IMG/VR virus record: IMGVR_UViG_2576861193_000002
Reading direction: 5' to 3' (one strand)
DNA: 64,000 bases
Source of the DNA: a virus
Lineage: Duplodnaviria > Heunggongvirae > Uroviricota > Caudoviricetes
Positions 3,872 through 46,933 of the stretch are shown here, one piece after another. Below the pieces are notes generated by a model that made no database searches, had not been told where the DNA came from, and worked only from the letters and a program-made list of their open reading frames with translations. Each line of letters opens with the position of its first letter. The first letter of the stretch is position 1. The position numbers were made by a program, and so were the translations under genes.

Positions 3872-3875
3872 CCAG

Positions 3876-3957
3876 GATAGCGCCCGATGCGCAAGCGTAT
3901 CGGGCTACTCTTATGGAGGCCGGATAAGACGCGGCCAGCGTCGCATCCGGCAATCCC
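3876..3957. repeat. REP/BIME-type extragenic palindromes between convergent ttcA and dbpA
   Basis: GCCGGATAAGACGCGGCCAGCGTCGCATCCGGC-type imperfect palindromes. Confidence 0.5.
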
Positions 3958-3999
3958 GAATAAGATGTTTACTCTTGCACCCGGCAATTCAACATTTCA

Positions 4000-5373
4000 T
4001 TATTTTAATAACCGCACCCGGCACGTTTTTCCTTTAATCTTCCCGCCCTGTAACTGTTTCCATGCTTTATGAGCAACAGCCTGACGGACCGCGACATAGA
4101 CATGCGCCGGATGCACGGCGATTTTGCCAATATCTGCGCCATCAAGCCCGATATCTCCTGTCAGTGCACCTAATACATCACCCGGGCGCATTTTGGCTTT
4201 TTTCCCGCCATCGATACACAACGTTGCCATTTCTGCTTCCAGCGTCGCAATGGAACTATTAGCTGGCGGCGTTTGCCAGTTAAGTTTTATCTGCAACATG
4301 TCAGAAATGATATTGGCCCGCTGTGCTTCTTCCGGAGCACAGAAACTGATCGCCAGACCGCTATTTCCTGCACGAGCTGTACGACCGATGCGATGTACAT
4401 GAACTTCAGGGTCCCACGCCAGCTCAAAGTTCACCACCAGCTCAAGCGATTTAATATCCAGACCACGCGCAGCAACATCAGTCGCGACCAGTACACGGGC
4501 GCTACCGTTAGCAAAACGTACCAGGGTCTGATCGCGATCGCGTTGCTCCAAATCGCCGTGTAATGACAATGCACTTTGCCCTACTTCATTCAGCGCGTCG
4601 CAGACAGCCTGGCAATCTTTTTTGGTATTGCAAAACACCACGCAAGAGGATGGCTGATGCAAGCTTAATAACCGTTGCAACAGAGGAATTTTGCCTTTGC
4701 TGGATGTCTCATAAAATTGTTGTTCAATGGGTGGCAAAGCATCTGTTGAGTCAATTTCAATCGCCAAAGGATCGCGTTGCACTCGTCCGCTGATTGCAGC
4801 GATGGCTTCCGGCCAGGTTGCCGAAAACAGAAGCGTCTGTCGAGATGCAGGCGCAAAACGGATGACATCATCAATGGCATCGCTAAATCCCATATCCAGC
4901 ATGCGGTCGGCCTCATCCATCACCAGCGTATTCAACGCATCCAGTGATACCGTGCCTTTTTGCAGGTGATCCAGCAAACGCCCCGGCGTTGCCACGATAA
5001 TATGCGGCGCATGTTGCAACGAATCACGCTGCATACCGAACGGTTGACCACCGCACAACGTCAAAATTTTGGTATTTGGCAGAAAACGCGCCAGCCGACG
5101 CAATTCACCTGCCACCTGATCCGCCAGTTCACGCGTAGGACACAGCACTAAAGCCTGGGTTTGAAATAGCGACGCATCAATTTGCTGTAACAAGCCGAGG
5201 CCAAAAGCCGCCGTTTTGCCGCTGCCGGTTTTCGCCTGCACGCGAACATCTTTTCCGGCAAGGATCGCCGGAAGCGCGGCGGCCTGCACCGGCGTCATGG
5301 TTAAATAACCCAACTCATTAAGGTTCGTGAGTTGGGCGGGAGGCAAAACATTCAGGGTAGAAAAAGCGGTCAC
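4000..5373 (-). CDS. dbpA: ATP-dependent RNA helicase DbpA (DEAD-box)
   Basis: 457 aa; Walker A AKTGSGKT, DEAD box VMDEAD, SAT, HRIGRTAR motifs. Confidence 0.92.
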   Translation of the reverse strand: MTAFSTLNVLPPAQLTNLNELGYLTMTPVQAAALPAILAGKDVRVQAKTGSGKTAAFGLGLLQQIDASLFQTQALVLCPTRELADQVAGELRRLARFLPNTKILTLCGGQPFGMQRDSLQHAPHIIVATPGRLLDHLQKGTVSLDALNTLVMDEADRMLDMGFSDAIDDVIRFAPASRQTLLFSATWPEAIAAISGRVQRDPLAIEIDSTDALPPIEQQFYETSSKGKIPLLQRLLSLHQPSSCVVFCNTKKDCQAVCDALNEVGQSALSLHGDLEQRDRDQTLVRFANGSARVLVATDVAARGLDIKSLELVVNFELAWDPEVHVHRIGRTARAGNSGLAISFCAPEEAQRANIISDMLQIKLNWQTPPANSSIATLEAEMATLCIDGGKKAKMRPGDVLGALTGDIGLDGADIGKIAVHPAHVYVAVRQAVAHKAWKQLQGGKIKGKTCRVRLLK

Positions 5374-9478: not shown

Positions 9479-9612
9479 CGCAATGACTCCATTTTGTTAA
9501 TTAACGGAATAATTCTACCATTTTGTGATCTGTGTTGCATTTTATGCTTATACAAAATGTATATTATAATAAACAAAGCAACAAATACACACAATCTGAG
9601 TGGGGTGTACTA

Positions 9613-9831
9613 ATGAAAATGGTAACAATTATCGCTGTTGCGGCTATTCTGGTTGGTTGCGCTGACACTAATCGACACAACGGTCATTGTGCAACTAGCG
9701 CATACGGTGTCTGCTATGAAAGATGGGTTGATGGTGTAATGGTTCCTGCCGGGGAAATTTGTCGGGTGTATGATGGCACTGATGGCCATAGTGGCAAGAC
9801 TAGAGATTGCGGAAGTAAGGAGTGGTATTAA
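9613..9831 (+). CDS. small Cys-rich lipoprotein (candidate superinfection-exclusion / receptor-masking protein)
   Basis: Internal Met of ORF 9532..9831: MKMVTIIAVAAILVGC lipobox; 6 Cys in mature part; opposite strand to adjacent tail fibre. Confidence 0.55.
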   Translation: MKMVTIIAVAAILVGCADTNRHNGHCATSAYGVCYERWVDGVMVPAGEICRVYDGTDGHSGKTRDCGSKEWY

Positions 9832-13800: not shown

Positions 13801-15990
13801 TGTTTTGCTAATCGGATACACTGTTGCCTGGAAAACACCAGGAACCCAATTAACGCCGACCGGGGCCGCTGGTGCACCAATAACCAGGTCCACAATACTT
13901 TCCGCACCCTTCATGCCAGTGTCATTACGCCCGCGAATACCAAGCGTGTAGCTGCCAGTATCAAGGCCATAAAACTCATAGCGGTAATTCGTTGTTTCAT
14001 AAGTTGCCACCACGCGGCCTTCGGCGTTATATACGCGTATTTCAAAGGTCAGGCGATGCGTTGTCGTCTGTGTTTCCCATGTAGCGCGACATTGAACAGT
14101 TTCAGAACCAACATTTAACACCTTCAGGTTTTCAATGTTCGGCACGCGGAAGTGATTAAGCGTGTCGTTGTTTACCTCAAAGATTGCGCCTTCATCGACT
14201 ACAGCCTGTTTATGTGGGTCATGCTGTGCTGCCTCGATGGTGTACACGCTGTTGTTTTCAGTTTCTGCTACGCTGATGATTCGGCACAGGACGGGTTTTG
14301 CTGCGTCAGTTGATACAGCAAAAACAGTTCCGTTACGAATCCACGCGGGGGCGGCTGCAAGGGTGATATTGTTTCCGTTAACTCCGGTGATCTGGTGTTT
14401 TTTAAACTTGCCATCACTATCAAGTAAACTAATGGTATCGCCTGCGGCGATGTATTCCGAATCAACCTTATCTACCGTTATCACCTTGCCATTATTCGCC
14501 ACGATACGACCGCCAAAACGAGCGCCTGCGCGGTTATTGTCGAGTATCTCGATAATATCCCCAGGGGTGAAGTGAATTGCGTCGCGGGCCATTTTAAACG
14601 TGAATTTTGATGGTTCGCGTTTTGCTGTTTCTATCAGCCACTTGCCAGCGCGGTATGCCTGCCCGCGTGAAGTGCAACCGAAAGCCTCTAGCGTGGTTTC
14701 GTTATAACCATCGCGGGCGATCAATTCATCATCTGCCACGTATTCTTTTGATTGCTCCCAACCGTTTTCCGGGTCAGTCCATGACACGATAACTGCGTTG
14801 TAAGATTCTGCACGGGCAATACTTGAACGAGTAAACGCGCCATCAACAACGTTAGCATTCGTGATGGTAGCAATTGGATCTTGCGGTGCATCAATCATCA
14901 CCGTAAGGCGCTGCCCATCCCATAACGCGATACCACGGAACATGCCTGCGATATTGTCCAGTAAGTCGCGGGCGCTCATTTGCTCAGTTATGTAAGCATT
15001 AAGCGTCATGCGAGGTTCAAAGCCGCCGTAACCGTCGTTTACCAACTGGTCGCAGTATTGAGAAAGCGTATATAATGCGCCGTCGTCAACATCAATGTAA
15101 CCAGCATGACGTGCAAGCCCGAAACGTTCATTTTTAACCAGATACCGGAATAGCCACGCAGGGTTATTGGTGTACGCTTTTTTAAATCCACCTAGCCATA
15201 AACCTGAATACGTGCGCGTTTCAGGGTTATAGTTGTCAGGCACATCAACAATCAGTCCGCGCAGATGATAGGTGCGGGTAGGTGTATCAGTATACTGGTC
15301 ATGGTCAATTACAGCACCAGCTACAGCGGTATGAGGGTAAGACAGGTTATCGTCGATTATTTCGCTGTAGCTACTCCACCGCGTATCATTACGAAGAAGA
15401 TCGCTTTTGCTGTCTGCTGTTACGCGACGAACGCGAATATCAAACGGCTTTTCATCCGGCGCTTTGATAATGTGAGCTTCCAGATATTCACCGCTTTGTT
15501 TACCGGGACCAATGTGTATACCTTTAACCGGCGACCACGTAGAAGATGATGACGGTTTAACATCAACCACCAACATAACGGATGTATTATATTGATTGCC
15601 CTCATCATCTGACTGAACAAGAGCATCAACGCCAAGATTTAACCTTACGCGGGTAACGTTTGGATCTGAAACAGTCCTTATTATTGGCGTGTCGTGAGTT
15701 ACCTTTGCGTTGACAATAACGGTTGATTCGATGGCATTAAAACCATTAATCGGCGATTGGTCAGCCGTGCCGTTGCGCCAGGCTATACTAATCCCAGGAA
15801 TTGATGTGTTTCCGTTTGCGTCAGTGATAGGCGTGTCATTAAGCATTACGTTGTTTAATGGCGCATTCTGGTTAACTACTCCAAAAATTGGTCCTTCACT
15901 TAGAATATCTAAAACCCGATAAAATTGTTTATGAAACAAATTATCATTAAGCAAAGTTGGTGTTTTTGCTTTACCGCCGCCACTAGACAT
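10807..15990 (-). CDS. central tail fibre / host specificity protein J-like with ~650-aa tandem-repeat coiled-coil insertion
   Basis: 1727 aa; N-terminal ~850 aa resembles lambda J as recalled (YHLRG..V.NYNP.TR.YSG.W.G); aa ~870-1520 are 29-30 aa repeats (SARTQAISDVNASISTLDKKTDASVNRLDQAIADET). Confidence 0.85.
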   Translation of the reverse strand: MSSGGGKAKTPTLLNDNLFHKQFYRVLDILSEGPIFGVVNQNAPLNNVMLNDTPITDANGNTSIPGISIAWRNGTADQSPINGFNAIESTVIVNAKVTHDTPIIRTVSDPNVTRVRLNLGVDALVQSDDEGNQYNTSVMLVVDVKPSSSSTWSPVKGIHIGPGKQSGEYLEAHIIKAPDEKPFDIRVRRVTADSKSDLLRNDTRWSSYSEIIDDNLSYPHTAVAGAVIDHDQYTDTPTRTYHLRGLIVDVPDNYNPETRTYSGLWLGGFKKAYTNNPAWLFRYLVKNERFGLARHAGYIDVDDGALYTLSQYCDQLVNDGYGGFEPRMTLNAYITEQMSARDLLDNIAGMFRGIALWDGQRLTVMIDAPQDPIATITNANVVDGAFTRSSIARAESYNAVIVSWTDPENGWEQSKEYVADDELIARDGYNETTLEAFGCTSRGQAYRAGKWLIETAKREPSKFTFKMARDAIHFTPGDIIEILDNNRAGARFGGRIVANNGKVITVDKVDSEYIAAGDTISLLDSDGKFKKHQITGVNGNNITLAAAPAWIRNGTVFAVSTDAAKPVLCRIISVAETENNSVYTIEAAQHDPHKQAVVDEGAIFEVNNDTLNHFRVPNIENLKVLNVGSETVQCRATWETQTTTHRLTFEIRVYNAEGRVVATYETTNYRYEFYGLDTGSYTLGIRGRNDTGMKGAESIVDLVIGAPAAPVGVNWVPGVFQATVYPISKTTLTTDTAYEFYFAGENQITDPSKVTTSAQFTGRGYQWTFGGMNTGHTYYVYIRTRNAFGVSDFVEASGKPTENFDEISDYVTKDVINSEQFKGMISDIKDLGDRADLIESATNDLKTATDNLKTATDNLTNITDDLRVDTDNLTNITDDLRIDTDGLITETGAIKADTDTLKKETEDLYKKVEENADDIGQHEARIDSLEVSSEKVGSELAQAKASLQNASLALINNSLAQTNTRVTLTAQYKKGRTETKAEIDRIDNVIAEEKKATAESLETITAEMNTMDSNLKGQISNVQRAVADEASARAEAINGVNASISNLDKKTDASVNRLDQAIADETSARTQAISDVNASISTLDKKTDASVKRLDQAIADETSARTEAISGVNTSISTLDGKVTSNINRIDKAIADETKARTDAISSVNASISTLENNTESEVSRLDQAVADETSARTQAISDVNASISNLESKTDASVSRLDKAISDETQARSAAITEVKADLTTLENSTNASVKRLDQAIADESSARAQAISGISAELGTVENNVDKNSDEINQTKASLQNASIALINNSIAQTNTRVTLTAQYKKGRKETNAQIDRIDNVIAEEKKATAEAISSVNASITDLDRKTEASVNRLDRAIADETSARSEAISGVNASVSALDKKTDSRISRLDKAIADETSARTEAISGVNASISTLENNTESEVSRLDQAIADESSARAQAISGVNASISTLDSKVTSNVTRIDKAIADETKARTDAISSLNSSLTSTINSKVSEVSTALSTHEASSAEKFGQISASFDSVNSNITEWSQAMATADEALSSKIDQLTVTVNGNTTAIQTTSKALTDFKGNVDATYSIKLATDNNGMKYATGMSLGLTGSGTNVQSQCIFLVDRFVLMTAANGTYTSPFYTTNDAMYVKEAFIKDGSIGTAKIAQQIQSTVFVQDSKGWMINKDGWAQFNEVTVRGNVIVKGNQNFDVRNSDGRVIINNNGITVNLPSGGKIIIGVW

Positions 15991-16549
15991 ATAGACCCCC
16001 TGTTTCGTGTAATTTCGTGTATCCTGCGCCAGCTTTATTTAGCTCTTCAATCATGAATGACCGCCACGCGACGGCGGCATTAATAGCCATTTCAAGTCCA
16101 CCGCACGCTATAACGCTAAATGATTTACTAACTCTTTTGTCGTTATCAGCGGTGATACGTGCTCTAATAGATCTCCCTTCTGCGTGCCAACATATCCCAA
16201 ATGGCAATCCGCTCTCCCTTGTCGCGCGACCTATGGTCATATTTCTGGCGTTACCTTTTTTATCTGTTACGCGTATGTTATTGAATTTATTATTAAGCCC
16301 ATTACCATCAATGTGATCGATGATCTCACTGCGTTTTAATTTTCTGCCACTGCATAATTCGTAAACAATCCGGTGAGCATAATAGCGACGGCCCTTCCAT
16401 GTGATTTTCCAGTACTTATTGCCGCTTTTTGCCGCTACTATTTTTCCTGCCGCATCGCCAGTCCTCGCCGTTCTGCTGTTAGCGGTGACTTTCCACCTTA
16501 AACATGAAGGAGAATCTTCATCATAAACAAACAATTCAGACCAGTTCAC
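15983..16549 (-). CDS. HNH homing endonuclease with AP2 DNA-binding domain
   Basis: 188 aa; EIIDHIDGNGLNNKFNN HNH motif; inserted between tail genes I and J. Confidence 0.8.
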   Translation of the reverse strand: MNWSELFVYDEDSPSCLRWKVTANSRTARTGDAAGKIVAAKSGNKYWKITWKGRRYYAHRIVYELCSGRKLKRSEIIDHIDGNGLNNKFNNIRVTDKKGNARNMTIGRATRESGLPFGICWHAEGRSIRARITADNDKRVSKSFSVIACGGLEMAINAAVAWRSFMIEELNKAGAGYTKLHETGGLYV

Positions 16550-17092: not shown

Positions 17093-17766
17093 TTGTCAGA
17101 TCTCCATATTGAATGCGTTTGTCTAACATAAGCGGGCCGCATTTGCTCGCGGCGGCTTAATAGTCCGGCATTGTCATGATGCAAAACGGTGTTATCTCCC
17201 AGGTAAATCATCGCGTGACATGGGTCAGCACCCTTAAACGGCTGACGGATAATCACGTCACCCGGCTGAATGCTTTGCGCGTCAACCATGAAAAACCCGT
17301 TCAATGGCAGGTTTTTTATATACAGGTTTTCCCCACGCAGCCACCACCCATCGTGGCGTTCAAAGTCCGGTAGATCCACGCCGCAAAGGTGATAGGCGTC
17401 ACGGAAAAGCGAGTAGCAGTCTGTTTTACCGTGCTCAAATTTACGACCTAACAGGTGAGCTACAGGGCGGAACTTTCTTACCCTGCCACCGGAACATAAA
17501 AACCACGGCAGGCCGGAAATAACTTGCTGTTGTCGATCCCGTGCTGACAATACTAATGAATTGTCAGTATGGGAGTGAAAAACTGCAGTTATAACGCCTA
17601 ATTCGTCAGCTTTGATATAATCGTCAGGCGAGATTTTAAAGCTGTTGTGAGGCGTTTCAGACACGTTTAAGCATGGGTAAAAATAATCGTTATCTATCAC
17701 CAGCCCGCACACCTCCTCTTCCTGGTGGGCTGCTGCATAGCGAATCATTTTATCTTCAAGTGCCAT
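17035..17766 (-). CDS. tail tip assembly protein K-like (NlpC/P60 + JAB/MPN)
   Basis: Internal start MALEDK... of ORF 17035..17862; HSH..D motif and Cys/His peptidase signature. Confidence 0.75.
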   Translation of the reverse strand: MALEDKMIRYAAAHQEEEVCGLVIDNDYFYPCLNVSETPHNSFKISPDDYIKADELGVITAVFHSHTDNSLVLSARDRQQQVISGLPWFLCSGGRVRKFRPVAHLLGRKFEHGKTDCYSLFRDAYHLCGVDLPDFERHDGWWLRGENLYIKNLPLNGFFMVDAQSIQPGDVIIRQPFKGADPCHAMIYLGDNTVLHHDNAGLLSRREQMRPAYVRQTHSIWRSDKCSNLDLRAIFEDITARCV

Positions 17767-17768
17767 AA

Positions 17769-18473
17769 TTAACCCACCTTGCTCGATCCAGGAAAACATG
17801 AAATTGGTAACGGATTCGGGCGCGGAAAACGCAAACGGCAACCGCTTAGGCGGTGGCTGCATTTGTCCATCCTTGGATCGTTGGTTGATTCGTCTTTATC
17901 GGTAGCTACAGGGCCGCCACTATATCCGCAACCGTCGCCGCGATACTGCCACTGGCAAACGTCAGCGAGAATTGTGCGCCCAGGGATAACAGCTTTATCA
18001 GCATCAATTGGCGTTGACAGTTCATATTGCACCTGGTCGGCTGTTTCTTCGCTCATCGCCTCAACGACGTAAAAAGATACAGCCTCAATAGATGGATCTG
18101 CATCTGGGTTGCCGTTGGGGAAGTTGATAGCGTCCAGGTATTTTACTTCCACCTGGCGGCGCGTAACCTTCATTCCTCGAAGGTCGTTAAAATCGTTATT
18201 CATCCCAGTGATTAGCCCGCCAATGTTGGCTACTACCATTTGGGGGCGTGAGTAAACGCCTTCGTTTTTCATTTCGAAGCCAGTCGCCTCGATTGGGTAG
18301 CTGTTGTAGGCCACTCCCTTCCAGATAACCGGGCCGTAATAGCCATTCGCGCCGGAATGGAAGCGGATAATCTCGCCACCCAGGGGCGTGAGGTCTAATT
18401 CAAACAAGTCAATTACCGCACCGACTCCGGCATCCACGGAATCAATAATCATTTCTGTAGGTATGCTGCGCAT
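17769..18473 (-). CDS. minor tail protein L-like
   Basis: 234 aa; CQWQYRGDGCGYSG Cys cluster as in lambda L. Confidence 0.8.
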   Translation of the reverse strand: MRSIPTEMIIDSVDAGVGAVIDLFELDLTPLGGEIIRFHSGANGYYGPVIWKGVAYNSYPIEATGFEMKNEGVYSRPQMVVANIGGLITGMNNDFNDLRGMKVTRRQVEVKYLDAINFPNGNPDADPSIEAVSFYVVEAMSEETADQVQYELSTPIDADKAVIPGRTILADVCQWQYRGDGCGYSGGPVATDKDESTNDPRMDKCSHRLSGCRLRFPRPNPLPISCFPGSSKVG

Positions 18474-18525
18474 TTTATCACCTTGTAATTTGTGATCGAC
18501 GTCACGCTAAATCATACCAAAACGG

Positions 18526-18554
18526 TTGATAGCGCTTTTTACAATATGTATATT
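18526..18554 (+). promoter_or_regulatory. sigma70-like promoter for plus-strand moron cassette
   Basis: TTGATA-17 bp-TATATT; overlaps palindrome TACAATATgtATATTGTA. Confidence 0.4.
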
Positions 18555-18570
18555 GTACTCAAAAGGAAGC

Positions 18571-18756
18571 ATGGTTAACAAAATGGCGCGGAGGTGTGAG
18601 ATGGTTGATAAGGTGTGGAGGTTGAAGGTATTCCTGGCGGATGGCAGGGAAATGACTGTAGCTCTGTATAAGGATGAAGGCGAGGCACTTACTGACGCGC
18701 TTTTACTCGCTGAAGACGAACGCGTTTTGGGGTACAGGATCGAACCCGTCAAATGA
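18571..18756 (+). CDS. moron hypothetical protein
   Basis: Internal Met of ORF 18526..18756; alternative start 18583. Confidence 0.4.
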   Translation: MVNKMARRCEMVDKVWRLKVFLADGREMTVALYKDEGEALTDALLLAEDERVLGYRIEPVK

Positions 18757-18768
18757 GGGTTTAACAAA

Positions 18769-19119
18769 ATGCAAAAATACAGCTTAGATGTGTGGACTGA
18801 TAAATGTGAATGGGAATGCATGGGCCTATTTGACACATATGCTGCGGCGCGTGATGAAGGTCGCGAATTACTTCTCTGTTGGTCTAACGCTCGTGATTTT
18901 GATATTACTCCGGTCCAAGTACCGGATAAGGTGGAAGAGATGAACCCTAAAGATATTGATGTTAGCTTCAATGTTAACTTTGCTGACTCTATGGATCAGT
19001 CTTGCCCTGGTGAAATACACGCAAAAGGTTTCCCCGCTGACGATCCAGAAGCAAAACGCGAATACGAAAAAGCGGCAAAAGATTTCTGTATCGACAATTT
19101 GTCTGCGTTCGATAAATAA
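18769..19119 (+). CDS. moron hypothetical protein (116 aa, acidic)
   Basis: ORF with GAGGG RBS; no recognised domain. Confidence 0.5.
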   Translation: MQKYSLDVWTDKCEWECMGLFDTYAAARDEGRELLLCWSNARDFDITPVQVPDKVEEMNPKDIDVSFNVNFADSMDQSCPGEIHAKGFPADDPEAKREYEKAAKDFCIDNLSAFDK

Positions 19120-19128
19120 GGCGGCAAC

Positions 19129-19377
19129 ATGGGGCGGCGCAATCACGGTGATTATGTGTACACGTTGAAACAGGCCGCCCGCCTCATCGGTTATCATGAG
19201 CACGAATTTATTGATTTGCTGATCGAGCGCGGGATTTTGTATCAGGTTTGTTTAACGCTGTACCCGAAAGCTAAGTACCTACAAGAAAAGTTATTCATCA
19301 TTATGACGGATGAAAACCAGGTCAATCACTCATTCGTCACTGATAAAGGCGTTAATTATCTGCGTGATAACTTATAG
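19129..19377 (+). CDS. moron hypothetical protein, possible HTH
   Basis: 82 aa; YTLKQAARLIGYHEHEFIDLLIERGIL helix-turn-helix-like. Confidence 0.45.
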   Translation: MGRRNHGDYVYTLKQAARLIGYHEHEFIDLLIERGILYQVCLTLYPKAKYLQEKLFIIMTDENQVNHSFVTDKGVNYLRDNL

Positions 19378-19530
19378 GTGACAGATTATAAAATAGAAGT
19401 TTTGGCGCTAATAATAATGGGACTGATAGTATTTGGCGTTCACGCTGTCGATTGGGACTGGGCGGCGATAGCCAATAACATGGCGCACGCTCACCCAATG
19501 AGTTTGATGTACATTAACTACTGACAAGAA

Positions 19531-19560
19531 AAACCCCGCACGAAGCGGGGTTGTTTTTAT
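19531..19560. terminator. bidirectional rho-independent terminator closing moron cassette
   Basis: AAAAACCCCGCacgaaGCGGGGTTGTTTTTAT: GC hairpin with A-run 5' and T-run 3'. Confidence 0.6.
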
Positions 19561-19754
19561 ACATCATCAACCAAAAATAAAACTTCCTTCCCTTCCCTGG
19601 ATCTGCACCCCACGTACCCATCACCCATATCATGTAGATACCAGGTATCGCCATTGTCAGCCTTTACAGTAAGGTCGTTGATCTCGTAGTCGTCAAATAA
19701 TGTAAAAGCGTCAGTTTTGTCCACTACACAAGTCCCGTACATATTAACCCCCAC
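19557..19754 (-). CDS. hypothetical small protein downstream of M
   Basis: 65 aa; start overlaps M stop; stop lies in terminator. Confidence 0.35.
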   Translation of the reverse strand: MGVNMYGTCVVDKTDAFTLFDDYEINDLTVKADNGDTWYLHDMGDGYVGCRSREGKEVLFLVDDV

Positions 19755-20107
19755 TAGCTGACAACTTGCTCAAATGTTGCGTTTAGCGTGTATACAGGCC
19801 CGTCCTTTGTCATACTCCAGCTACGGCAAACAAAAAGCCTTTGCACGCCATCCATAGACGGCGACCAGTAAAAAGCCTCGACAGCGCCGCGCGCCCTCAA
19901 GAATGCTTCTGCCTGGATCGCTACGTTCCCACCATCACCGCATCCTGCACTACTGCCTTTAAAGACCAGGGTGTAGCTATCAAGCAACGTGTTAATCCCT
20001 TTCGCCTGGCGCTGTTCATAACCATCACCAAGTTTAATGACAGATACGTTTGGTTCCCTGGTCACGCTGTAGCTTCTTTGCGGCGTCCATCTGAAAACTT
20101 CTGGCAT
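19754..20107 (-). CDS. minor tail protein M-like
   Basis: 117 aa; C-terminal ...TFEQVVS resembles lambda M ...EFEQVVN as recalled. Confidence 0.75.
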   Translation of the reverse strand: MPEVFRWTPQRSYSVTREPNVSVIKLGDGYEQRQAKGINTLLDSYTLVFKGSSAGCGDGGNVAIQAEAFLRARGAVEAFYWSPSMDGVQRLFVCRSWSMTKDGPVYTLNATFEQVVS

Positions 20108-20140
20108 GATTCCCCCTATAAGTTACATATTGCATACATC

Positions 20141-20181
20141 TTTACGCGCTTCTACGCGAAAAATGAGAAATTCATCACAAG
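20141..20181. repeat. conserved ~40-bp element (copy 1) upstream of M
   Basis: TTTACGCGcttCTACGCGAAAAATgAGAAAtTC; second copy at 32856-32893 upstream of portal. Confidence 0.5.
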
Positions 20182-20276
20182 AATTATAACCAGTTTACAA
20201 AATGGCTTCACATAAGGCGTGACAAGATGTATATAGTAAGCAAGAAGAAAAAGCAGTACCGACAAAGGGGGGCAAT

Positions 20277-20432
20277 ATGGAACGCTATGTGGTTGTGATG
20301 CTGAACAAAGCATTCGAACAGGTGGAAGTTGCGATTGTGAAGGGCTTTGATGATGCATTCAAATACGGTCAATTTATGATGAATGCGAAGGAAAATGAGT
20401 ACCGTGATTTCTTCCTAAAAGTAGTCAACTGA
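20277..20432 (+). CDS. small hypothetical protein (51 aa)
   Basis: AAGGGGGG RBS then ATG; MERYVVVMLNKAFEQ...; coordinates approximate. Confidence 0.3.
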   Translation: MERYVVVMLNKAFEQVEVAIVKGFDDAFKYGQFMMNAKENEYRDFFLKVVN

Positions 20433-20452
20433 TTGATTGCGTGGGGTGAGTT

Positions 20453-20707
20453 ATGAAATTGGTAATGATTGGCAAAAACCTGAAAGCTCAGAAAAACGCG
20501 CCGGAACATGTAGTTAAAAAAGCAAAGGAACTTTTGAACGCGTTTTTAAACAAGAATGCGTCACCCAAAAAATTGAAAGACGGTTACGGCTACGCCTTCC
20601 GCGCCAATTTAGACTGGCGAGTCTATAGCCAGGATCTGAAGGAGTGGGTGATTGTTGAACACCATAAATTCAATGAATTGTCTGGCGTTCGCGGTTGCCA
20701 TAAGTAA
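20453..20707 (+). CDS. hypothetical basic protein (84 aa)
   Basis: GGGGTGAG RBS; MKLVMIGKNLKAQKNAPEHVVKKAKELLNAF... Confidence 0.5.
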   Translation: MKLVMIGKNLKAQKNAPEHVVKKAKELLNAFLNKNASPKKLKDGYGYAFRANLDWRVYSQDLKEWVIVEHHKFNELSGVRGCHK

Positions 20708-20794
20708 GGCGGGATATGGATGACGATAAATTCACCCGGCGGGAGATCTGGAATATTTAGTTGGTGATTTTCGTGAGGGGATATATCTCGCGGA

Positions 20795-21754
20795 ATGGTC
20801 GGATATAAAATGGGTGTGATTATGGCGCGAAAAATGACACATGAAGAACATATTGCAGATATAGCAAATGTCAATCCTCGTGTTGATATTTTAGGAGAAA
20901 TTACAGGCTGCAATGATAAGGTGTCGTGTCGTTGCAGAGTTTGTAACCACAAATGGCGTACTACGCCGCACAGCCTTAAGGCTGGCAGGGGCTGCCCCGA
21001 ATGTAAAAGAACAAAGATAGCACGAATAAAACAACTATCACATAACGATCATGTTGCTGCAATTGCTAATGTTAATCCATTTGTTGAAGTGCTAGAAAAA
21101 ATTGTTAATGTAAAGAAAAAGATCGCATGTCGTTGTAATAATTGCAAAAACATATGGATGACTACGCCAAATGATCTCAAAAACGGTCACGGCTGTCCGA
21201 AATGCTCTGGCGTAGCGAAGCTGTCACATGAAGAGCAGATTGCAGCTATTGCGAAAGTTAACCAAAATGTTGATGTAATAGGCAATATTGTTAATGACAA
21301 AACAAAAGTATCATGCCGCTGCAAGGCTTGCGGTCATGTGTGGTCGGCTACGCCTAACGACCTTAAAAATGGGCGCGGCTGCCCGAAATGCGCGAAACGA
21401 GGGTTTTTATCCCACGAACACGGAAAACTTTACATCATGGTTGATGATCTTGAAGTGCCAACAATGATGAAAATCGGCGTGAGCGTTAAGGAGAACGAGC
21501 GAAGAAATAAAGTATTAAAAAGCGCACATAAAGCAGGTGTCAGAATCCCTGATTTGTATGTCGTGAAAACGTGGGTGGGGCCAACTGAAAAAGTACAAGA
21601 ATTAGAAAGCACGATGCATAAGGCTTTTAGCAATTATAAAATTAACTTCCCTGTAAAATTTGATGGCAGTAATGAATTTTTCTACTACAGGCCGGAAGTA
21701 TTCAGCATGGTAGAAAGTACATACAGTGATATTGTAAATAAAAATGCGGCATGA
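20795..21754 (+). CDS. triple zinc-ribbon + T5orf172 (GIY-YIG-like) domain protein
   Basis: Three ~57-aa repeats each with CRCxxC...GxGCPxC; C-terminus GKLYIMV..MKIGVS..ERRNKVL...ESTMHKAF...NEFF matches T5orf172 pattern. Confidence 0.6.
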   Translation: MVGYKMGVIMARKMTHEEHIADIANVNPRVDILGEITGCNDKVSCRCRVCNHKWRTTPHSLKAGRGCPECKRTKIARIKQLSHNDHVAAIANVNPFVEVLEKIVNVKKKIACRCNNCKNIWMTTPNDLKNGHGCPKCSGVAKLSHEEQIAAIAKVNQNVDVIGNIVNDKTKVSCRCKACGHVWSATPNDLKNGRGCPKCAKRGFLSHEHGKLYIMVDDLEVPTMMKIGVSVKENERRNKVLKSAHKAGVRIPDLYVVKTWVGPTEKVQELESTMHKAFSNYKINFPVKFDGSNEFFYYRPEVFSMVESTYSDIVNKNAA

Positions 21755-21794
21755 ATATTCAGCCCACCACCATTAGTGACGGGCTTATTCTTAG

Positions 21795-24002
21795 TTATCT
21801 TTTTCGTGGCTGTATAATCCCCCCGGGGCGCGTGCTCTGCTCCCTCACAACACCCATAGCAACCTTCTTCATCGTCTCTTGCAGTTTGGCGCTGTCCTGC
21901 TCGGTCCATCCGTTCTCGGCTGTTATGTTGATGGTAACAGGCATGTTGATGCCGCCACCGCCGCCAATGTCGCGATTTGGTATTACCCTGCCGTTGTCAC
22001 CCGGAATCATGTACTGCTCGCCGTTTCGAGATTGGAAGATCTCTGGCTTGCCGTGCTCGCCAACCCTATAAAGATTATTGCTATTAACCGCACCGCCGTT
22101 ATAACGAGCGCCAGCAAGCCCAAGCGCCTTAGCCCCAGCCACACCAGTGGCAAGACTCGTGCCCCCCACGGTCGCCGCTCCGCCCATCGTGGCAACGTTT
22201 GCCAGGTATGCAGGAGTGGCCCACGCAGATCCTAATGCAGTAGCCTCGGCTAGTGCTTTAGCTGTTGCCGCAGCGCTGGCGGCCTCACCGATCAATTGCT
22301 GTTTAACCCATTCAGCCCCCATTTGAACAAGTGTACCGATAACGGAGGAAAGGATTGTATTGCCAATGTTAGCCAGCGCCTGCTGCCAACTTTGAGTGCC
22401 GTTAACCAGGCCCACAAGCGCATTTGTTGCAGATCCTCCCATTGCATCAACGGTATCACCCAATAGTTTGTAGCTCATTGACTGTGCTTTATATCGCTCC
22501 CATTCAATGGAGATCATTTCTTGTGCGTGCGCTCTTTCTTGCTCCTTCATGTATTGCTCGGTAGCGCCAAGATCTTCCAGCATTTGCTTGCGTATGGTCC
22601 ATTCATTTTGCGCCTGCTGTATTGGGTCCAGCTCGCCGCGCTTCTGATCCAGTGATGAAATCATTTTGTCCCATTTTTCTTGCAGCCTATTGATCGGGTC
22701 GTTAATTTCTGCTAGAGTTTCGCGCAATTCATCACCAATTCCCTTCATTGCGCCTTTGTATTCAAGCATGGTTATTTTCCCGGCTTTAAAGGCTGCATCT
22801 ATGGCTTTTTGTGATTCAAGCGCTTTGCGCATTGCTGCTGAATCTTCGTTGTATGCATCTGAAATGCGCACACCCTGTTCCGCAAGGCGCTCGGCTTCTG
22901 ATTTGCCGGATTTTTTACCTTTGCCTTTATTACCCTTGCCACCAGGTTGAGGCTTAAATGTTATGCGACTTACACCAGCTTGCCCCGTGGGGAGAGTGGA
23001 AACAAATGGCTGTTCTCCATCGCCAAACCATCCAACCTGTTTTGCTTGAGCGCGGAACAAACTAAGCCCAGGCACTATACCCTCAAACGCCCCAGCCAAT
23101 AGCCACAATTTGTCAGTTAATGACGTGCTGTCGCTCGCCAGGGACTTAAACCAGCCGGATAATATTTGGACTTCACTAGAGATAGCTTGTATACCAGTAA
23201 CCACCAAATCGGACACGCCAAGCGTTTGATTTAGCGTGTCGATTAGCAGATCGAAGTTGTTTTTTAGCTCGTTAAATGCCTGATCTGTTGTTGTTGGCAG
23301 CTTTGCGAAGTCCTTCTCTATGTCTTCTGCGCCAGCAAGAATTGCGTTGGTAACATCCTCAGCGGTGAGCTTACCATCAAGCATTCTTGCGCGAAGTTCA
23401 CCCATCGAGATTCCCATTTGTTTGGATACGCGCCGCCACACCTCTGGCATGTTTTCAAGTACAGAGTTGTATTCTTCCGCGCGAACAATGCCGCCCGTCA
23501 GTGACTGCCCTAACTGGCGAAGTGCGTTTGACATTTCATCTGATGAGCTACCACCGATACGCCCTATTTTTTGAAGCGAGTCGGTAAGCTGCAATACCTG
23601 CTGACTTGTCGCACTGGTATCCTGAAGGCTGGCCTTCAGGCTTTCCCACAGCTTCCCGGTGCTTTGAACGCTCATCCCTGTACGATTCGATATCTGAATA
23701 ATCCCGTCAAAATTCGATTTTGCGTCAGCAATGCCACTCGACAGGCGCGTCACCCTGGCACGAAGCAGATTTACGTTATCCGCGATCTCCAGGAATTTTT
23801 TTGCAGCCATAACCATCATCCCAATGTTCACAGCTTTAGATAAATTACTTATTGTGGTGTTAAGTGACTTTACTGATTTATCGGTGCGTTTAGCGCCTTG
23901 CTCGATTTTATCAAACGAGTCTTCAGCCTTGCGTTGAGCTACAAGTAACCGTTCGGTTTTTGCGTCAACGGTATATTCGATCGTGCCTACATTTGTGGTC
24001 AT
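21795..24002 (-). CDS. tail tape measure protein
   Basis: 735 aa; alpha-helical, Gly/Ala-rich C-terminal segments; between G/T and M. Confidence 0.85.
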   Translation of the reverse strand: MTTNVGTIEYTVDAKTERLLVAQRKAEDSFDKIEQGAKRTDKSVKSLNTTISNLSKAVNIGMMVMAAKKFLEIADNVNLLRARVTRLSSGIADAKSNFDGIIQISNRTGMSVQSTGKLWESLKASLQDTSATSQQVLQLTDSLQKIGRIGGSSSDEMSNALRQLGQSLTGGIVRAEEYNSVLENMPEVWRRVSKQMGISMGELRARMLDGKLTAEDVTNAILAGAEDIEKDFAKLPTTTDQAFNELKNNFDLLIDTLNQTLGVSDLVVTGIQAISSEVQILSGWFKSLASDSTSLTDKLWLLAGAFEGIVPGLSLFRAQAKQVGWFGDGEQPFVSTLPTGQAGVSRITFKPQPGGKGNKGKGKKSGKSEAERLAEQGVRISDAYNEDSAAMRKALESQKAIDAAFKAGKITMLEYKGAMKGIGDELRETLAEINDPINRLQEKWDKMISSLDQKRGELDPIQQAQNEWTIRKQMLEDLGATEQYMKEQERAHAQEMISIEWERYKAQSMSYKLLGDTVDAMGGSATNALVGLVNGTQSWQQALANIGNTILSSVIGTLVQMGAEWVKQQLIGEAASAAATAKALAEATALGSAWATPAYLANVATMGGAATVGGTSLATGVAGAKALGLAGARYNGGAVNSNNLYRVGEHGKPEIFQSRNGEQYMIPGDNGRVIPNRDIGGGGGINMPVTINITAENGWTEQDSAKLQETMKKVAMGVVREQSTRPGGIIQPRKR

Positions 24003-24010
24003 GATTGCTA

Positions 24011-24080
24011 CTCCAGTTTTGTGATCTGTGTCTCTATTTTATACAAAATGGCTTTACTTCAGCGACTCCATTTTGTATAA
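24011..24080 (+). promoter_or_regulatory. regulatory region with perfect 12-bp inverted repeat TATACAAAATGG-N16-CCATTTTGTATA
   Basis: Upstream of plus-strand lipoprotein moron; TTTTGTGATCTGTGT box shared with 9518-9535. Confidence 0.45.
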
Positions 24081-24319
24081 GGAAGCCATAGGGAACAGTT
24101 AAGAAATCAAACAAAAACGAGGTGAATTATGAAAAGTTTAATCAACAAAATTCTGGTGGTTGCCATTGCTCTTGCAATCTGTGTGCACATGACCGTGCTT
24201 TACTGGCAAGCTCCAAATGCAATGCTCATGATGCAGATCGCAGGTCAAAAGGCGTTCATCCCTGGCTGGGGTGCGCTGGATGCTTTAATCCGCTGGTTTA
24301 TGGCTTAAAGGTGCTAATT

Positions 24320-24694
24320 ATGAAAAACGTATTAAAAGCCGCGCTGATTGGTGTTATTGCTCTGTCGCTCGCTGGGTGTGCAAGATCAACTGATTTTGTT
24401 AGGTTGGCTGATAATAAGTTGCAGGCTGGAATGACTTGCGAGCAGGTTACTAAAATCATGGGTGAGCCTCAAAGGATTGAGTATGACGGTAAGTACAGCT
24501 ATCACGTATGGTGGTCGGTAACAAGTACGGTAGGTTTTACATACATGGATGTTGAAGAGTTATCCCCTTCAAGGGTTATAGCGAAGTTTGATAATTGTAT
24601 TCTGAAAGAATGGAAAGATCGCAGCAAGGCGAAGACTGTATATGGCACAATTACTCACAGCTCACCAGGCGCTGCCGTCAAAGATTTCAATTAA
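24320..24694 (+). CDS. moron lipoprotein, possibly BamE/SmpA-OmlA-like fold
   Basis: Internal Met of ORF 24122..24694: MKNVLKAALIGVIALSLAGC lipobox; GMTCEQVTKIMGEP motif. Confidence 0.55.
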   Translation: MKNVLKAALIGVIALSLAGCARSTDFVRLADNKLQAGMTCEQVTKIMGEPQRIEYDGKYSYHVWWSVTSTVGFTYMDVEELSPSRVIAKFDNCILKEWKDRSKAKTVYGTITHSSPGAAVKDFN

Positions 24695-24700
24695 AGAAAG

Positions 24701-24727
24701 GCCCGGCTAATTCCGGGCTTTTTGTTC
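24701..24727 (+). terminator. rho-independent terminator after lipoprotein moron
   Basis: GCCCGGctaattCCGGGC + TTTTTGTTCTTT. Confidence 0.55.
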
Positions 24728-46925: not shown

Positions 46926-46933
46926 TCACGCTG

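What the first reader, a model, noticed from the sequence alone, without database searches (positions are those of the whole stretch)
18526..19560. Self-contained moron cassette between M and L with its own promoter and bidirectional terminator
A near-consensus promoter (TTGATA-17-TATATT), three plus-strand ORFs (one with an HTH-like segment) and a strong GC hairpin flanked by A- and T-runs are inserted against the direction of the tail operon. This is the classic moron structure, predicted to be expressed from the lysogen.
Basis: seen in the sequence. Interest (0 to 1): 0.45.

Follow-up and report, generated by a model that had tools for sequence, protein, structure and literature searches.

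The report
Accessory gene cassette in tail operon
A small, self-contained block of four accessory genes with its own promoter and terminator sits backwards inside the tail genes of an E. coli prophage; this is an ordinary phage "moron", its function is unknown and its expression is untested.

Summary
The window carries an E. coli prophage of the mEp021/mEpimmI group. Its tail operon runs on the minus strand. Between L (17769-18473) and M (19754-20107) lies a plus-strand unit: promoter TTGATA-17-TATATT, four ORFs rather than three, and a hairpin of about -16.7 kcal/mol on either strand.

Across 52 relatives the -10 is invariant and the -35 nearly so, while the promoter-proximal spacer varies freely. 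An upstream CRP-consensus-like palindrome keeps its half-sites while its centre varies.

OrfA, OrfB and OrfC are under purifying selection. OrfC is a stand-alone KilAC domain with a winged-helix-like model. OrfA and the OrfB N-domain are paralogous and hypervariable. OrfD has lost its ATG in this window.

One relative has deleted the cassette. A sister clade has M and L adjacent, or unrelated backward cargo at the same junction.

The moron anatomy is therefore supported. Expression in the lysogen and gene function were not tested. The cassette is near-universal in the group and already annotated as hypothetical proteins, so it is not a recent insertion. I rate it a new member of a known kind, of low to moderate interest.

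The parts
18491..18506 (.). Palindrome TGTGATCGACGTCACG, matching the CRP consensus TGTGA-N6-TCACA at 9 of 10 core positions. Its centre at 18498.5 lies about -62 from the predicted transcription start.
   Evidence: In 39 unique relatives the half-sites are almost invariant (p-distance 0.009 and 0.056) while the central 4 nt vary freely (0.377). TGTGA-N6-TCAC occurs 4 times in the window against 0.41 expected. As an RNA hairpin it is weak: -2.9 kcal/mol, z -0.4.
18517..18525 (+). CCAAAACGG, a variant of the over-represented 9-mer ACAAAAYGG, directly abutting the -35 hexamer.
   Evidence: ACAAAAYGG occurs 16 times against 1.7 expected. The same element abuts -35-like hexamers at 20197, 24043, 46875 and 50996(-). 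It is conserved in relatives.
18526..18554 (+). Sigma-70-type promoter TTGATA-17-TATATT, with a predicted transcription start near 18561.
   Evidence: 10/12 match to consensus. The -10 is invariant (p-distance 0.000) and the -35 nearly so (0.05), while the 5' part of the spacer (0.245) and the start-proximal region (0.203) vary, across 52 sequences. Activity was not tested.
18541..18553 (+). 13-mer ACAATATGTATAT (3' part of the spacer plus the -10), shared with other plus-strand promoters of the prophage. It lies within the near-palindrome TACAATAT-gt-ATATTGTA (18540-18557).
   Evidence: ACAANATGTATAT matches exactly at 9552, 18541, 20222 and 46899, all on the + strand. There are 6 hits at one mismatch or fewer against 0.44 expected, reached by 0 of 100 shuffles. 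The right half of the palindrome is G/T polymorphic in relatives.
18574..18586 (+). Conserved 5'-UTR block GTTAACAAAATGG. It marks the left boundary of cargo exchange and the left end of the deletion in L044.
   Evidence: p-distance 0.023. It is retained even where the downstream orfA is replaced or deleted.
18601..18756 (+). orfA, 51 aa, ribosome-binding site GGAGG at 18590-18594. Small predicted beta-beta-alpha-beta domain; hypervariable alleles.
   Evidence: phrog_29559 at E 7e-25, function unknown. dN/dS 0.13. Start inferred from relatives. hhalign to the OrfB N-domain gives 86% probability, E 5e-6. Nucleotide p-distance is 0.25-0.30 against about 0.1 in L.
18769..19119 (+). orfB, 116 aa. 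The N-domain (residues 1-52) is variable; the C-terminal tail (about residues 70-116) is conserved.
19129..19377 (+). orfC, 82 aa. Stand-alone ANT/KilAC domain protein, the most conserved gene of the cassette.
19378..19524 (+). orfD, a remnant or variant of a 45-aa single-pass membrane peptide (MKIEVLALIIMGLIVFGVHA... in relatives). Here only a GTG without a Shine-Dalgarno sequence is in frame.
   Evidence: Relatives have AGGTG-N7-ATG. The window lost the G of the ATG by a 1-nt deletion. Synonymous differences between relatives indicate a real gene in the family.
19532..19552 (.). Bidirectional intrinsic-terminator-like hairpin: 8-bp GC-rich stem with GTTTTT downstream on + and TTTTCTT downstream on -.
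   Evidence: The stem is retained in most of the aligned relatives (two carry a stem mismatch), and some have a flipped loop. It is annotated as a terminator in the mEp records: on both strands in mEp021 and on the late-operon strand in mEp013, mEp515 and mEp010.
19557..19742 (-). o65, a 61-aa gene downstream of M on the late-operon strand. It ends at the same terminator and belongs to the same insertion/deletion block.
   Evidence: phrog_3249. dN/dS 0.09. Deleted together with orfA-D in L044.

Best explanation
The segment 18491-19552 is an autonomous accessory operon, a multi-gene moron, embedded backwards between tail genes L and M of an mEp021-type (mEpimmI) prophage.

How it most likely works (all steps below are inferred):
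- Host sigma-70 RNA polymerase starts at the near-consensus promoter, around 18561.
- A dimeric DNA-binding protein probably modulates it at the palindrome centred about 62 bp upstream. The palindrome fits host CRP-cAMP in a class-I-like position.
- The transcript covers orfA, orfB, orfC and (in relatives) orfD, and stops at the hairpin. The cassette therefore does not produce antisense RNA against o65 and M.
- Late tail transcription comes from the opposite side. It must read through the same hairpin, presumably as antiterminated polymerase, because the phage group encodes a Q-like regulator.
- The promoter carries no recognisable link to the late operon, so the cassette is expected to be on whenever host polymerase sees the DNA: in the lysogen and immediately after infection.

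What the products are likely to do:
- OrfC is a stand-alone KilAC domain with a winged-helix-like fold. It would either bind DNA as a regulator or, like the KilAC domain of Listeria AriS, damp RecA/SOS signalling.
- OrfA and the N-domain of OrfB are paralogous, hypervariable small domains. OrfB also has a conserved C-terminal tail. I read this as a variable specificity part joined to a conserved partner-binding part.
- OrfD is a small membrane peptide.

Shown here: the anatomy, the conservation pattern, coding status, presence/absence polymorphism and domain assignments. Inferred: promoter activity, the CRP involvement, the timing of expression and every protein function.
For: Identity and context:
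- The region is 94% identical to phage mEp013, with the same gene order in 7 phage records.
- The host flank is 100% E. coli dbpA-zntB.

Promoter:
- 10/12 match to consensus.
- Footprint across 52 sequences: -10 p-distance 0.000, -35 0.05, spacer 5' part 0.245, start region 0.203.

Palindrome:
- Half-sites 0.009 and 0.056 against centre 0.377.
- 4 copies in the window against 0.41 expected, all four also present in mEp021.
- The RNA-hairpin alternative is weak.

Terminator: -16.7 and -16.6 kcal/mol, z -4.2 on both strands.

Genes: dN/dS 0.04-0.14 for A, B, C and o65; OrfD is conserved in relatives.

Moron criteria:
- GC 0.44 against 0.51 for L and M.
- 41 of 42 related contigs carry the cassette and one (L044) has it cleanly deleted.
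- In the sister clade 15 loci have M and L adjacent, and 21 have unrelated inserts of 178-1301 bp at the same junction; most of the twelve representatives read carry + strand cargo.

Shared promoter motif with the plus-strand lipoprotein gene. Its mEp021 and mEp010 counterparts exclude superinfecting phage when expressed (PMC11893012).

Q-like regulator annotated in mEp021.

KilAC: Pfam hit, fold, and SOS inhibition by an isolated KilAC domain in PMC9043618.

OrfA/OrfB: paralogy, a natural fusion protein P0051, and a hypervariable segment with p-distance 0.25-0.38 against about 0.1 in the flanks.
Against: - There is no transcription data of any kind. A 10/12 consensus match is not above chance in this AT-rich region.
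- The promoter block is retained in L044, the variant that lacks the genes. Part of its conservation could therefore serve L expression. A 9/12 minus-strand promoter-like site, TTGTTA-18-TACAAT (18581..18552), overlaps it.
- The distance from the palindrome to the -35 hexamer differs by 1 bp between two allele groups, which is not ideal for strict class-I CRP phasing. A phage regulator could equally be the binder.
- The repeated 9-mer also occurs near the probable early promoters. If it is a repressor operator, the cassette would be off in the lysogen.
- No defence, anti-defence or toxin family matches OrfA-D.
Confidence: 0.6

Rival explanations
1. Anti-defence or early-infection cassette. The promoter matters mainly in the first minutes after DNA entry. 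OrfA and OrfB would be inhibitors of host or prophage defence systems, diversifying in an arms race. Expression in the lysogen would be incidental.
For: orfA and the orfB N-domain are about three times more divergent than the flanking tail genes, yet they are under purifying selection within allele classes. They are small, acidic, orphan proteins whose named homologue clusters all come from E. coli or its phages. The conserved, probably disordered tail plus helix of OrfB looks like a binding motif. The promoter needs no phage factor.
Against: No match to any known family. Backward placement inside the late operon is typical of lysogen-expressed morons (PMC3594210). Genes for early anti-defence usually sit near the genome end that enters first, or in early operons; this last point is from general knowledge and was not tested here.
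Confidence: 0.2
2. An antirepressor or secondary immunity module in the style of P22 immI. The cassette would be held off in the lysogen by a regulator binding the palindromic or repeated motifs at its promoter. When released, OrfC (KilAC) would antagonise the prophage repressor or another repressor.
For: KilAC is a signature domain of P1/P7 Ant-type antirepressors (Pfam; PMC9043618). PGAP and the mEp021 authors label orfC 'antirepressor'. The -10 lies in a near-palindrome, TACAATAT-gt-ATATTGTA. The 9-mer at the promoter recurs near the probable early promoters next to the repressor gene. The location in the late region parallels P22 immI (from memory).
Against: OrfC lacks the N-terminal Bro-N, AntA or pRha domain found in characterised Ant and AriS proteins. 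No Arc- or Mnt-type ribbon-helix-helix or other repressor gene is found in the cassette. The right half of the palindrome is polymorphic in half of the relatives. The single tested function of an isolated KilAC domain is SOS inhibition, not antirepression.
Confidence: 0.12
3. The conserved 'promoter block' is mainly a control region for L-K-I-J, acting as an internal minus-strand promoter or a translation/RNA element. The plus-strand ORFs would then be weakly expressed passengers.
For: L044 keeps the 110-bp block although orfA-D and o65 are gone. A minus-strand site, TTGTTA-18-TACAAT, overlaps the block; its -35 lies in the conserved GTTAACAAAATGG, and the G/T polymorphism keeps TACAAT or TAAAAT. 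The hairpin is at least as good a terminator for the late strand, so L might need its own start.
Against: The sister clade has M and L adjacent with no such block. The conservation pattern fits the plus-strand hexamers exactly, with an invariant TATATT. OrfA-C are clearly under selection. The minus-strand match is only 9/12, which is a chance-level score. A Q-like antiterminator is available for read-through.
Confidence: 0.08

Closest known systems
Morons of lambdoid phages (HK97 gene 15 in the tail operon; lambda bor and lom), as defined by Juhala/Hendrix and reviewed in PMC3594210
   Same: It is extra DNA at a fixed point of a conserved late operon. It has its own sigma-70-like promoter and intrinsic terminator, its GC is lower than the neighbours', and it is present or absent among relatives.
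   Different: It has four genes instead of one. It is near-universal in its phage group rather than sporadic. It is paired with a small late-strand gene (o65) that shares the terminator. Its promoter belongs to a family of related promoters within the same prophage. Expression from the prophage has not been shown.
AriS of Listeria phage phi10403S and other ANT/KilAC (PF03374) proteins such as P1/P7 Ant
   Same: OrfC matches the KilAC model above the curated threshold. An isolated KilAC domain is active on its own in Listeria, where it inhibits SOS, probably via RecA (PMC9043618).
   Different: OrfC is only 82 aa and has no N-terminal AntA, Bro-N or pRha domain. It is very divergent, with 4 representatives at E<1e-3 in 1.84 billion proteins. 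It comes from an enterobacterial phage. No activity was tested.
P22 immI region (mnt, arc, ant) inside the late operon
   Same: It would be a separately promoted regulatory cassette with an 'antirepressor'-labelled gene, embedded among late structural genes. A palindrome overlaps the promoter.
   Different: There is no homologue of P22 Ant, Arc or Mnt. The orientation is opposite to late transcription. No repressor gene was identified.
mEp021 genes gp71-gp74 and their equivalents in mEp013, mEp515, mEp010 and MagusPhagus (GenBank annotations)
   Same: These are orthologous cassettes with the same order and terminator, 88-94% nucleotide identity over 17700-20200 in the seven phage records.
   Different: mEp021 carries one extra ORF (gp72). 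In this window orfD has lost its ATG. The published description of the group (PMC11893012) does not use the word 'moron' and mentions 'promoter' only for the Ptac expression vector, so the cassette and its promoter are not discussed there.
Class I CRP-dependent promoters (for example lac P1, CRP centred at -61.5)
   Same: TGTGA-N6-TCACG matches 9 of 10 core positions. The half-sites are invariant with a free centre. The centre lies about -62 from the predicted start.
   Different: The transcription start is only predicted. One allele group has the site 1 bp further away. The core promoter is already near consensus, so CRP would not be strictly needed. CRP binding was not tested.

Membership tests
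Moron (Juhala/Hendrix; PMC3594210) | Extra DNA relative to related phages at the same position of a syntenic operon | tested here: met
   L044 lacks orfA-D and o65, leaving a 131-bp M-L gap. In the sister clade M and L are adjacent in 15 loci, and unrelated inserts occupy the junction in 21.
Moron (Juhala/Hendrix; PMC3594210) | Own promoter | tested here: inconclusive
   At the sequence level there is a 10/12 consensus match and a phylogenetic footprint with invariant hexamers and a variable spacer. Promoter activity cannot be tested with these tools.
Moron (Juhala/Hendrix; PMC3594210) | Own intrinsic terminator | tested here: met
   The hairpin at 19532-19552 folds at -16.7 kcal/mol (z -4.2), has T-runs on both strands, and its stem is retained in most aligned relatives. 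This is sequence-level evidence only.
Moron (Juhala/Hendrix; PMC3594210) | Base composition different from the neighbouring genes | tested here: met
   GC is 0.440 for the cassette against 0.513 (L), 0.511 (M) and 0.498 (H). The difference is modest, because the whole prophage is 0.457.
Moron (Juhala/Hendrix; PMC3594210) | Expression from the repressed prophage | not testable with these tools
   No transcript data are available. It needs RNA-seq, 5'-RACE or a reporter fusion in a lysogen.
ANT/KilAC domain proteins (PF03374) | Match to the family profile above the curated threshold | tested here: met
   OrfC scores 29.9 bits against a cutoff of 25.3, E 7.4e-7, covering profile positions 23-105 of 108.
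Ant/AriS-type antirepressors | Two-domain architecture: N-terminal AntA/AntB, Bro-N or pRha domain plus C-terminal KilAC | tested here: not met
   OrfC is 82 aa and consists of KilAC only. No such N-terminal domain is found in OrfA or OrfB.
Ant/AriS-type antirepressors | Antirepressor or SOS-inhibiting activity | not testable with these tools
   This was shown for the KilAC domain of Listeria AriS only (PMC9043618).
P22 immI-type module | Ant homologue together with Arc/Mnt ribbon-helix-helix repressors | tested here: not met
   No Pfam or PHROG hit of that kind. The OrfB N-domain is predicted beta-beta-alpha-beta, and OrfA aligns to it as a paralogue.
Class I CRP-dependent promoter | CRP consensus TGTGA-N6-TCACA | tested here: met
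   TGTGATCGACGTCACG matches 9 of 10 core positions. The half-sites are invariant in 39 unique relatives.
Class I CRP-dependent promoter | Site centred near -61.5 (or one or more helical turns further) from the transcription start, and dependence on CRP-cAMP | tested here: inconclusive
   The centre at 18498.5 is -62.5 from a predicted start at 18561. It is one base further in the second allele group. The start site and CRP dependence are unknown.
Known defence systems and toxin-antitoxin families | Match to PADLOC, Pfam or NCBIfam models | tested here: not met
   No hits for OrfA-D or o65.

The most novel reading that the evidence does not exclude
The stand-alone KilAC protein OrfC is made in the lysogen from a promoter tuned by CRP-cAMP. 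It damps RecA/SOS signalling, as the KilAC domain of Listeria AriS does. This would explain why most mEpimmI prophages are not UV-inducible although their repressor carries a LexA-like S24 autocleavage domain.

In the same reading, the hypervariable OrfA/OrfB pair is a specificity module. The cassette would also be one member of a prophage-wide set of backward-facing accessory units and early promoters that share one promoter module (ACAAAAYGG, then the -35, then ACAAnATG-TATAT) and are therefore co-regulated.
Probability: 0.12. Interest if true: 0.6.

Novelty: new member of a known kind. Interest (0 to 1): 0.3.

Why it matters
Morons are how temperate phages carry genes that change the host, for example by superinfection exclusion, virulence or stress responses. 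mEpimmI phages are reported to be as common in the human gut collection as lambdoid phages (PMC11893012). Their accessory genes are all 'hypothetical'.

If the cassette is expressed in lysogens, it offers a compact system for three questions:
- What does an isolated KilAC domain do in E. coli? A testable candidate is suppression of SOS-dependent induction.
- Why does a pair of paralogous mini-proteins diversify three times faster than the tail genes around it?
- Does host CRP or a phage factor coordinate several backward-facing cassettes through a shared promoter module?

If it is not expressed, it is simply one more annotated block of small phage ORFs.

Tried and rejected
1. RecA mimicry by OrfB. 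phmmer gave RecA C-domain hits at E 0.011, but they disappeared with a family profile. I treat this as chance.
3. Defence, toxin or named families. Scans of PADLOC, NCBIfam, Pfam and PHROGs gave nothing informative for OrfA, OrfB, OrfD or o65.
4. Known RNA families in 17500-22000. There were none at E up to 1.
5. The CRP-like palindrome as an RNA hairpin or nut boxB. It folds at only -2.9 kcal/mol, no better than shuffles. The real nut-like boxA/boxB elements lie elsewhere.
6. The perfect palindrome TACAATAT-gt-ATATTGTA as a conserved operator. Its right half is G/T polymorphic in about half of the relatives, so only the left part plus the -10 is constrained.
7. ACAAAATGG at 18578 as the true orfA start (MARRC...). 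The ATG is ACG or ATA in some relatives. Codon 6 varies like a spacer between the Shine-Dalgarno sequence and the start codon. Divergent alleles start at the equivalent of 18601.
8. Homology of OrfA to the 51-aa protein upstream of the ParE-like gene. hhalign gave no signal.
9. Literature. The mEpimmI paper does not discuss this cassette, its promoter or late transcription. The Gp17 antitermination paper is not in the searchable library.
10. A deep search for OrfC relatives found only 4 representatives, so no broad family alignment could be built. The structure model rests on 8 close sequences.
Full report
**What is in the sequence**

The window holds an E. coli prophage whose tail genes run on the minus strand:
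- tape measure, 21795-24002;
- M, 19754-20107 (PF05939);
- L, 17769-18473 (PF05100);
- K, I, an HNH endonuclease and J further left.

Between L and M, on the plus strand, the reported elements are present. TTGATA (18526-18531) is separated by 17 nt from TATATT (18549-18554). The hairpin AACCCCGC-acgaa-GCGGGGTT (19532-19552) is followed by GTTTTT on the plus strand and TTTTCTT on the minus strand.

The hairpin folds at -16.7 and -16.6 kcal/mol on the two strands, z about -4.2, and none of 200 shuffles does as well.

A promoter-like match is not in itself better than chance: 11 sites were found in 7 kb against 12.4 expected.

There are four plus-strand ORFs, not three:
- orfA, 18601-18756, 51 aa, with GGAGG six bases upstream;
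- orfB, 18769-19119, 116 aa;
- orfC, 19129-19377, 82 aa;
- orfD, 19378-19524.

A 61-aa minus-strand gene, o65 (19557-19742), follows M and ends at the same hairpin.

**Identity of the element**

The region 17700-20200 is 88-94% identical to seven phage records, led by mEp013 and mEp021, with the same gene order. In those records the cassette genes are annotated as hypothetical proteins, or as 'putative antirepressor' in mEp021, and the hairpin is annotated as a terminator.

The host flank is 100% identical to E. coli dbpA-zntB. This fits the ydaM integration site reported for mEp021 (PMC11893012).

mEp021 is annotated with a Q-like late regulator. Read-through of the hairpin by antiterminated late transcription is therefore plausible, but it is inferred.

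The paper describing the group does not use the word 'moron' and mentions 'promoter' only for the Ptac expression vector. It notes only that a KilAC-like protein is close to core in 48 genomes, and that most of these phages are not UV-inducible.

**Is it an insertion?**

I fetched 80 viral contigs encoding relatives of L and located M, L and the cassette proteins in each.
- Among contigs with L at 85% identity or more, and with both genes present, 41 of 42 have a 1.2-1.9 kb M-L gap containing cassette genes.
- One, L044, has a 131-bp gap.

Alignment shows a clean deletion in L044. It runs from just after GTTAACAAAAT (about 18585) to the start codon of o65 (about 19742). It removes orfA-D, the hairpin and o65 but keeps the promoter block.

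In the next clade (L about 70% identical), 15 loci have M and L adjacent, with only a hairpin between them. Another 21 carry inserts of 178-1301 bp. In the twelve representatives read, most inserts hold unrelated plus-strand cargo ORFs (58-268 aa), usually with a small minus-strand ORF after M. The M/L junction is thus a recurrent site for backward-facing cargo.

GC is 0.44 in the cassette against 0.51 in L and M. These are the classical moron criteria (PMC3594210).

The cassette is nevertheless an old, near-universal feature of this phage group, not a recent arrival in this prophage.

**Evidence that the promoter is real**

In 52 homologous sequences (39 unique) the mean pairwise differences are:

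| Segment | p-distance |
|---|---|
| -10 hexamer | 0.000 |
| -35 hexamer | 0.05 |
| 3' part of the spacer | 0.035 |
| 5' part of the spacer | 0.245 |
| region around the predicted start | 0.203 |

For comparison, dS is 0.36-0.74 in the neighbouring genes. This is the footprint expected of a working sigma-70 promoter.

Upstream, TGTGATCGACGTCACG (18491-18506) matches the CRP consensus at 9 of 10 core positions.
- Its half-sites are nearly invariant (0.009 and 0.056), while the four central bases vary freely (0.377).
- TGTGA-N6-TCAC occurs four times in the window against 0.41 expected, reached by 0 of 100 shuffles.
- All four copies are also present in mEp021.
- As RNA the palindrome is no more stable than shuffles. 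A DNA-binding dimer is therefore the better reading.
- Its centre lies about 62 bp upstream of the predicted start, close to the class-I CRP position. The start is only predicted, and one allele group has one extra base.

**A promoter family**

The 13-mer ACAANATGTATAT (3' part of the spacer plus the -10) occurs exactly at 9552, 18541, 20222 and 46899, all on the plus strand. There are 6 hits at one mismatch or fewer against 0.44 expected, reached by 0 of 100 shuffles.

The first three copies lie just upstream of backward-facing units:
- the lipoprotein gene at about 9613, whose mEp021 and mEp010 counterparts exclude superinfecting phage (PMC11893012);
- this cassette;
- a second cassette between M and the tape measure gene.

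A 9-mer, ACAAAAYGG, occurs 16 times against 1.7 expected. Several copies are start-codon contexts. Others abut -35-like hexamers at 20197, 24043, 46875 and 50996(-), and as CCAAAACGG at 18517.

I could not identify the factor involved, if there is one. The element also sits at the probable early promoters near the repressor gene. A repressor operator therefore cannot be excluded, and this is the main threat to the 'on in the lysogen' prediction.

**The genes**

*Coding status.* orfA, orfB, orfC and o65 have dN/dS of 0.13, 0.14, 0.04 and 0.09, so they are real genes.

*OrfC.* It matches Pfam ANT/KilAC above the curated cutoff. It is the most conserved product, at 89-100% identity.
- It is isolated in sequence space, with four representatives at E<1e-3 among 1.84 billion proteins.
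- An isolated KilAC domain of Listeria AriS inhibits the SOS response, probably through RecA (PMC9043618).

*OrfB.* It has 57 homologue clusters; every one that carries a source name is from E. coli or a phage, and none has a Pfam domain.
- Its N-domain (residues 1-52, beta-beta-alpha-beta, pLDDT about 94) is variable.
- Its C-terminal tail is conserved but modelled with low confidence.

*OrfA.* It aligns to the OrfB N-domain with 86% probability, E 5e-6. One homologue, P0051, is a natural fusion of an OrfA-like domain with OrfB.

*Divergence along the cassette.* Nucleotide p-distance is:
- 0.25-0.38 over orfA and the orfB N-domain;
- 0.04-0.11 over the orfB tail and orfC (0.15 in the two windows at the orfC boundaries);
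- about 0.1 in L.

*OrfD.* In relatives it is a 45-aa single-pass membrane peptide with an AGGTG ribosome-binding site. In this window a 1-nt deletion removed its ATG.

*Extra cargo.* Some relatives carry additional small genes between orfC and orfD or beyond the hairpin. This is typical of an accreting accessory locus.

**Most likely mechanism and rivals**

The best-supported model is an autonomous accessory operon.
- It is read by host polymerase from a near-consensus promoter, probably modulated at the upstream palindrome.
- It stops at a hairpin that shields M and o65 from antisense RNA.
- That hairpin is overridden on the other strand only by antiterminated late transcription.

Such a promoter should fire in lysogens and right after infection. 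I put 0.6 on this anatomy and logic. The protein functions are much less certain.

Rivals:
- an early anti-defence cassette (0.2), favoured by the hypervariable OrfA/OrfB segment;
- an immI-like antirepressor module that is repressed in lysogens (0.12);
- a control region that mainly serves L (0.08), suggested by retention of the block in L044 and by an overlapping 9/12 minus-strand promoter-like site.

**Comparison with known systems and verdict**

This is a moron in the Juhala/Hendrix sense on every criterion that sequence can test. Expression from the prophage remains untested.

It contains a KilAC-domain protein but does not have the two-domain architecture of characterised Ant or AriS proteins. 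It lacks Arc/Mnt-type partners, so I do not file it under antirepressor systems.

The cassette is already deposited and annotated as hypothetical genes in several phage genomes. I rate it a new member of a known kind, of low to moderate interest.

The points that go beyond the ordinary, all testable, are:
- the CRP-like site;
- the promoter motifs shared across backward-facing units;
- the stand-alone KilAC protein, in a phage group reported as largely non-UV-inducible.

Noticed in passing
window 20108-21794 (+ strand): A second backward-facing cassette lies between M and the tape measure gene. It holds a 51-aa ORF (20277-20432), a ParE-like toxin domain protein (20453-20707, PF24732) and a 319-aa protein with three CapR/treble-clef zinc fingers plus T5orf172 (20795-21754). 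Its promoter-like site is ACAAAATGG-C-TTCACA-17-TATATA. The content varies between relatives: an HNH gene or small ORFs replace the 319-aa gene.
   Followed up: partly
window 24003-24706: A third backward-facing gene (24122-24694, 190 aa, no family match) lies between the tape measure gene and the upstream tail gene. It is preceded by ACAAAATGG-C-TTTACT-17-TATAAG, set in an inverted repeat TACAAAATGG...CCATTTTGTA, and by a CRP-like half-palindrome TGTGATCTGTGTCTCT.
   Followed up: partly
window 9479-9831: A lipoprotein gene (about 9613-9831, signal LVGC) lies downstream of J on the + strand. It is the counterpart of the Lpp superinfection-exclusion proteins tested in PMC11893012. Its upstream region carries the same 13-mer (ACAAAATGTATAT at 9552) and two inverted copies of ACAAAATGG.
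   Followed up: partly
window 43423, 46915, 50755 (and 18491): There are four CRP-consensus-like palindromes (TGTGA-N6-TCAC) in the prophage against 0.41 expected. Those at 18491 and 46915 lie in gene-free stretches; 43423 and 50755 lie near the nut-like boxA/boxB sites, and in mEp021 their counterparts fall within an annotated terminator and within gp16. All four copies are also present in mEp021. The binder could be host CRP or a phage factor.
   Followed up: partly
window 46875-46930 (+ strand): A promoter-like module, ACAAAACGG-ATACGC-17-TATATT, is followed directly by TGTGATCGCAATCACG. It points antisense to the early operon, between the homologues of mEp021 gp25 and gp26. It may be an antisense or small-RNA promoter.
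   Followed up: no
window 18552-18581 (- strand): A minus-strand promoter-like site, TTGTTA-18-TACAAT (9/12), has a -10 that overlaps the plus-strand -10. Together they form the near-palindrome TACAATAT-gt-ATATTGTA. The G/T polymorphism in relatives keeps TACAAT or TAAAAT. It could be a back-to-back promoter feeding L-K-I-J.
   Followed up: partly
L044 (IMGVR_UViG_3300045988_076424), locus 3869-4001: This is a natural deletion variant. orfA-D, the hairpin and o65 are gone, the promoter block is kept, and the block now faces the 3' end of M directly.
   Followed up: yes
L055-L090 (viral contigs with L about 70% identical): In the sister clade a strong late-strand terminator hairpin (GCCACC-cgga-GGTGGC followed by T7) sits immediately before the L ribosome-binding site, even where M and L are adjacent. 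Variable cargo is inserted between it and M, for example a 268-aa protein in L078 and a 154-aa protein in L074.
   Followed up: partly
window 19378-19390: The orfD start codon was lost by a 1-nt deletion (TTATGAAAAT in relatives, TTATAAAAT here). Seven other relatives have ATG changed to ATA. The small membrane peptide may be dispensable or may use a non-canonical start.
   Followed up: yes
window 15983-16549 (- strand): An HNH_3 endonuclease gene is inserted between tail genes I and J. It is present in mEp021 and mEp515 and absent in mEp013, mEp010 and the E. coli prophages examined, so it is probably a free-standing homing endonuclease.
   Followed up: no
window about 43365(-), about 50705(-), about 51935(+): Nut-like elements are present: boxA GCTCTTTAAAAAT or CGCTCATTAAAAAT followed by a short hairpin. 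Their positions match nutR2, nutR1 and nutL as described for mEp021.
   Followed up: no
L018, L023, L029, L026, L043 (between orfC and orfD): Some relatives carry extra cargo. One item is a 69-aa ORF (MLKYDGQK...). Another is a second tiny membrane peptide (MDKVIENVLVVAGAIAIVYAF..). L018 also has an ORF beyond the hairpin. The cassette accretes small genes.
   Followed up: no
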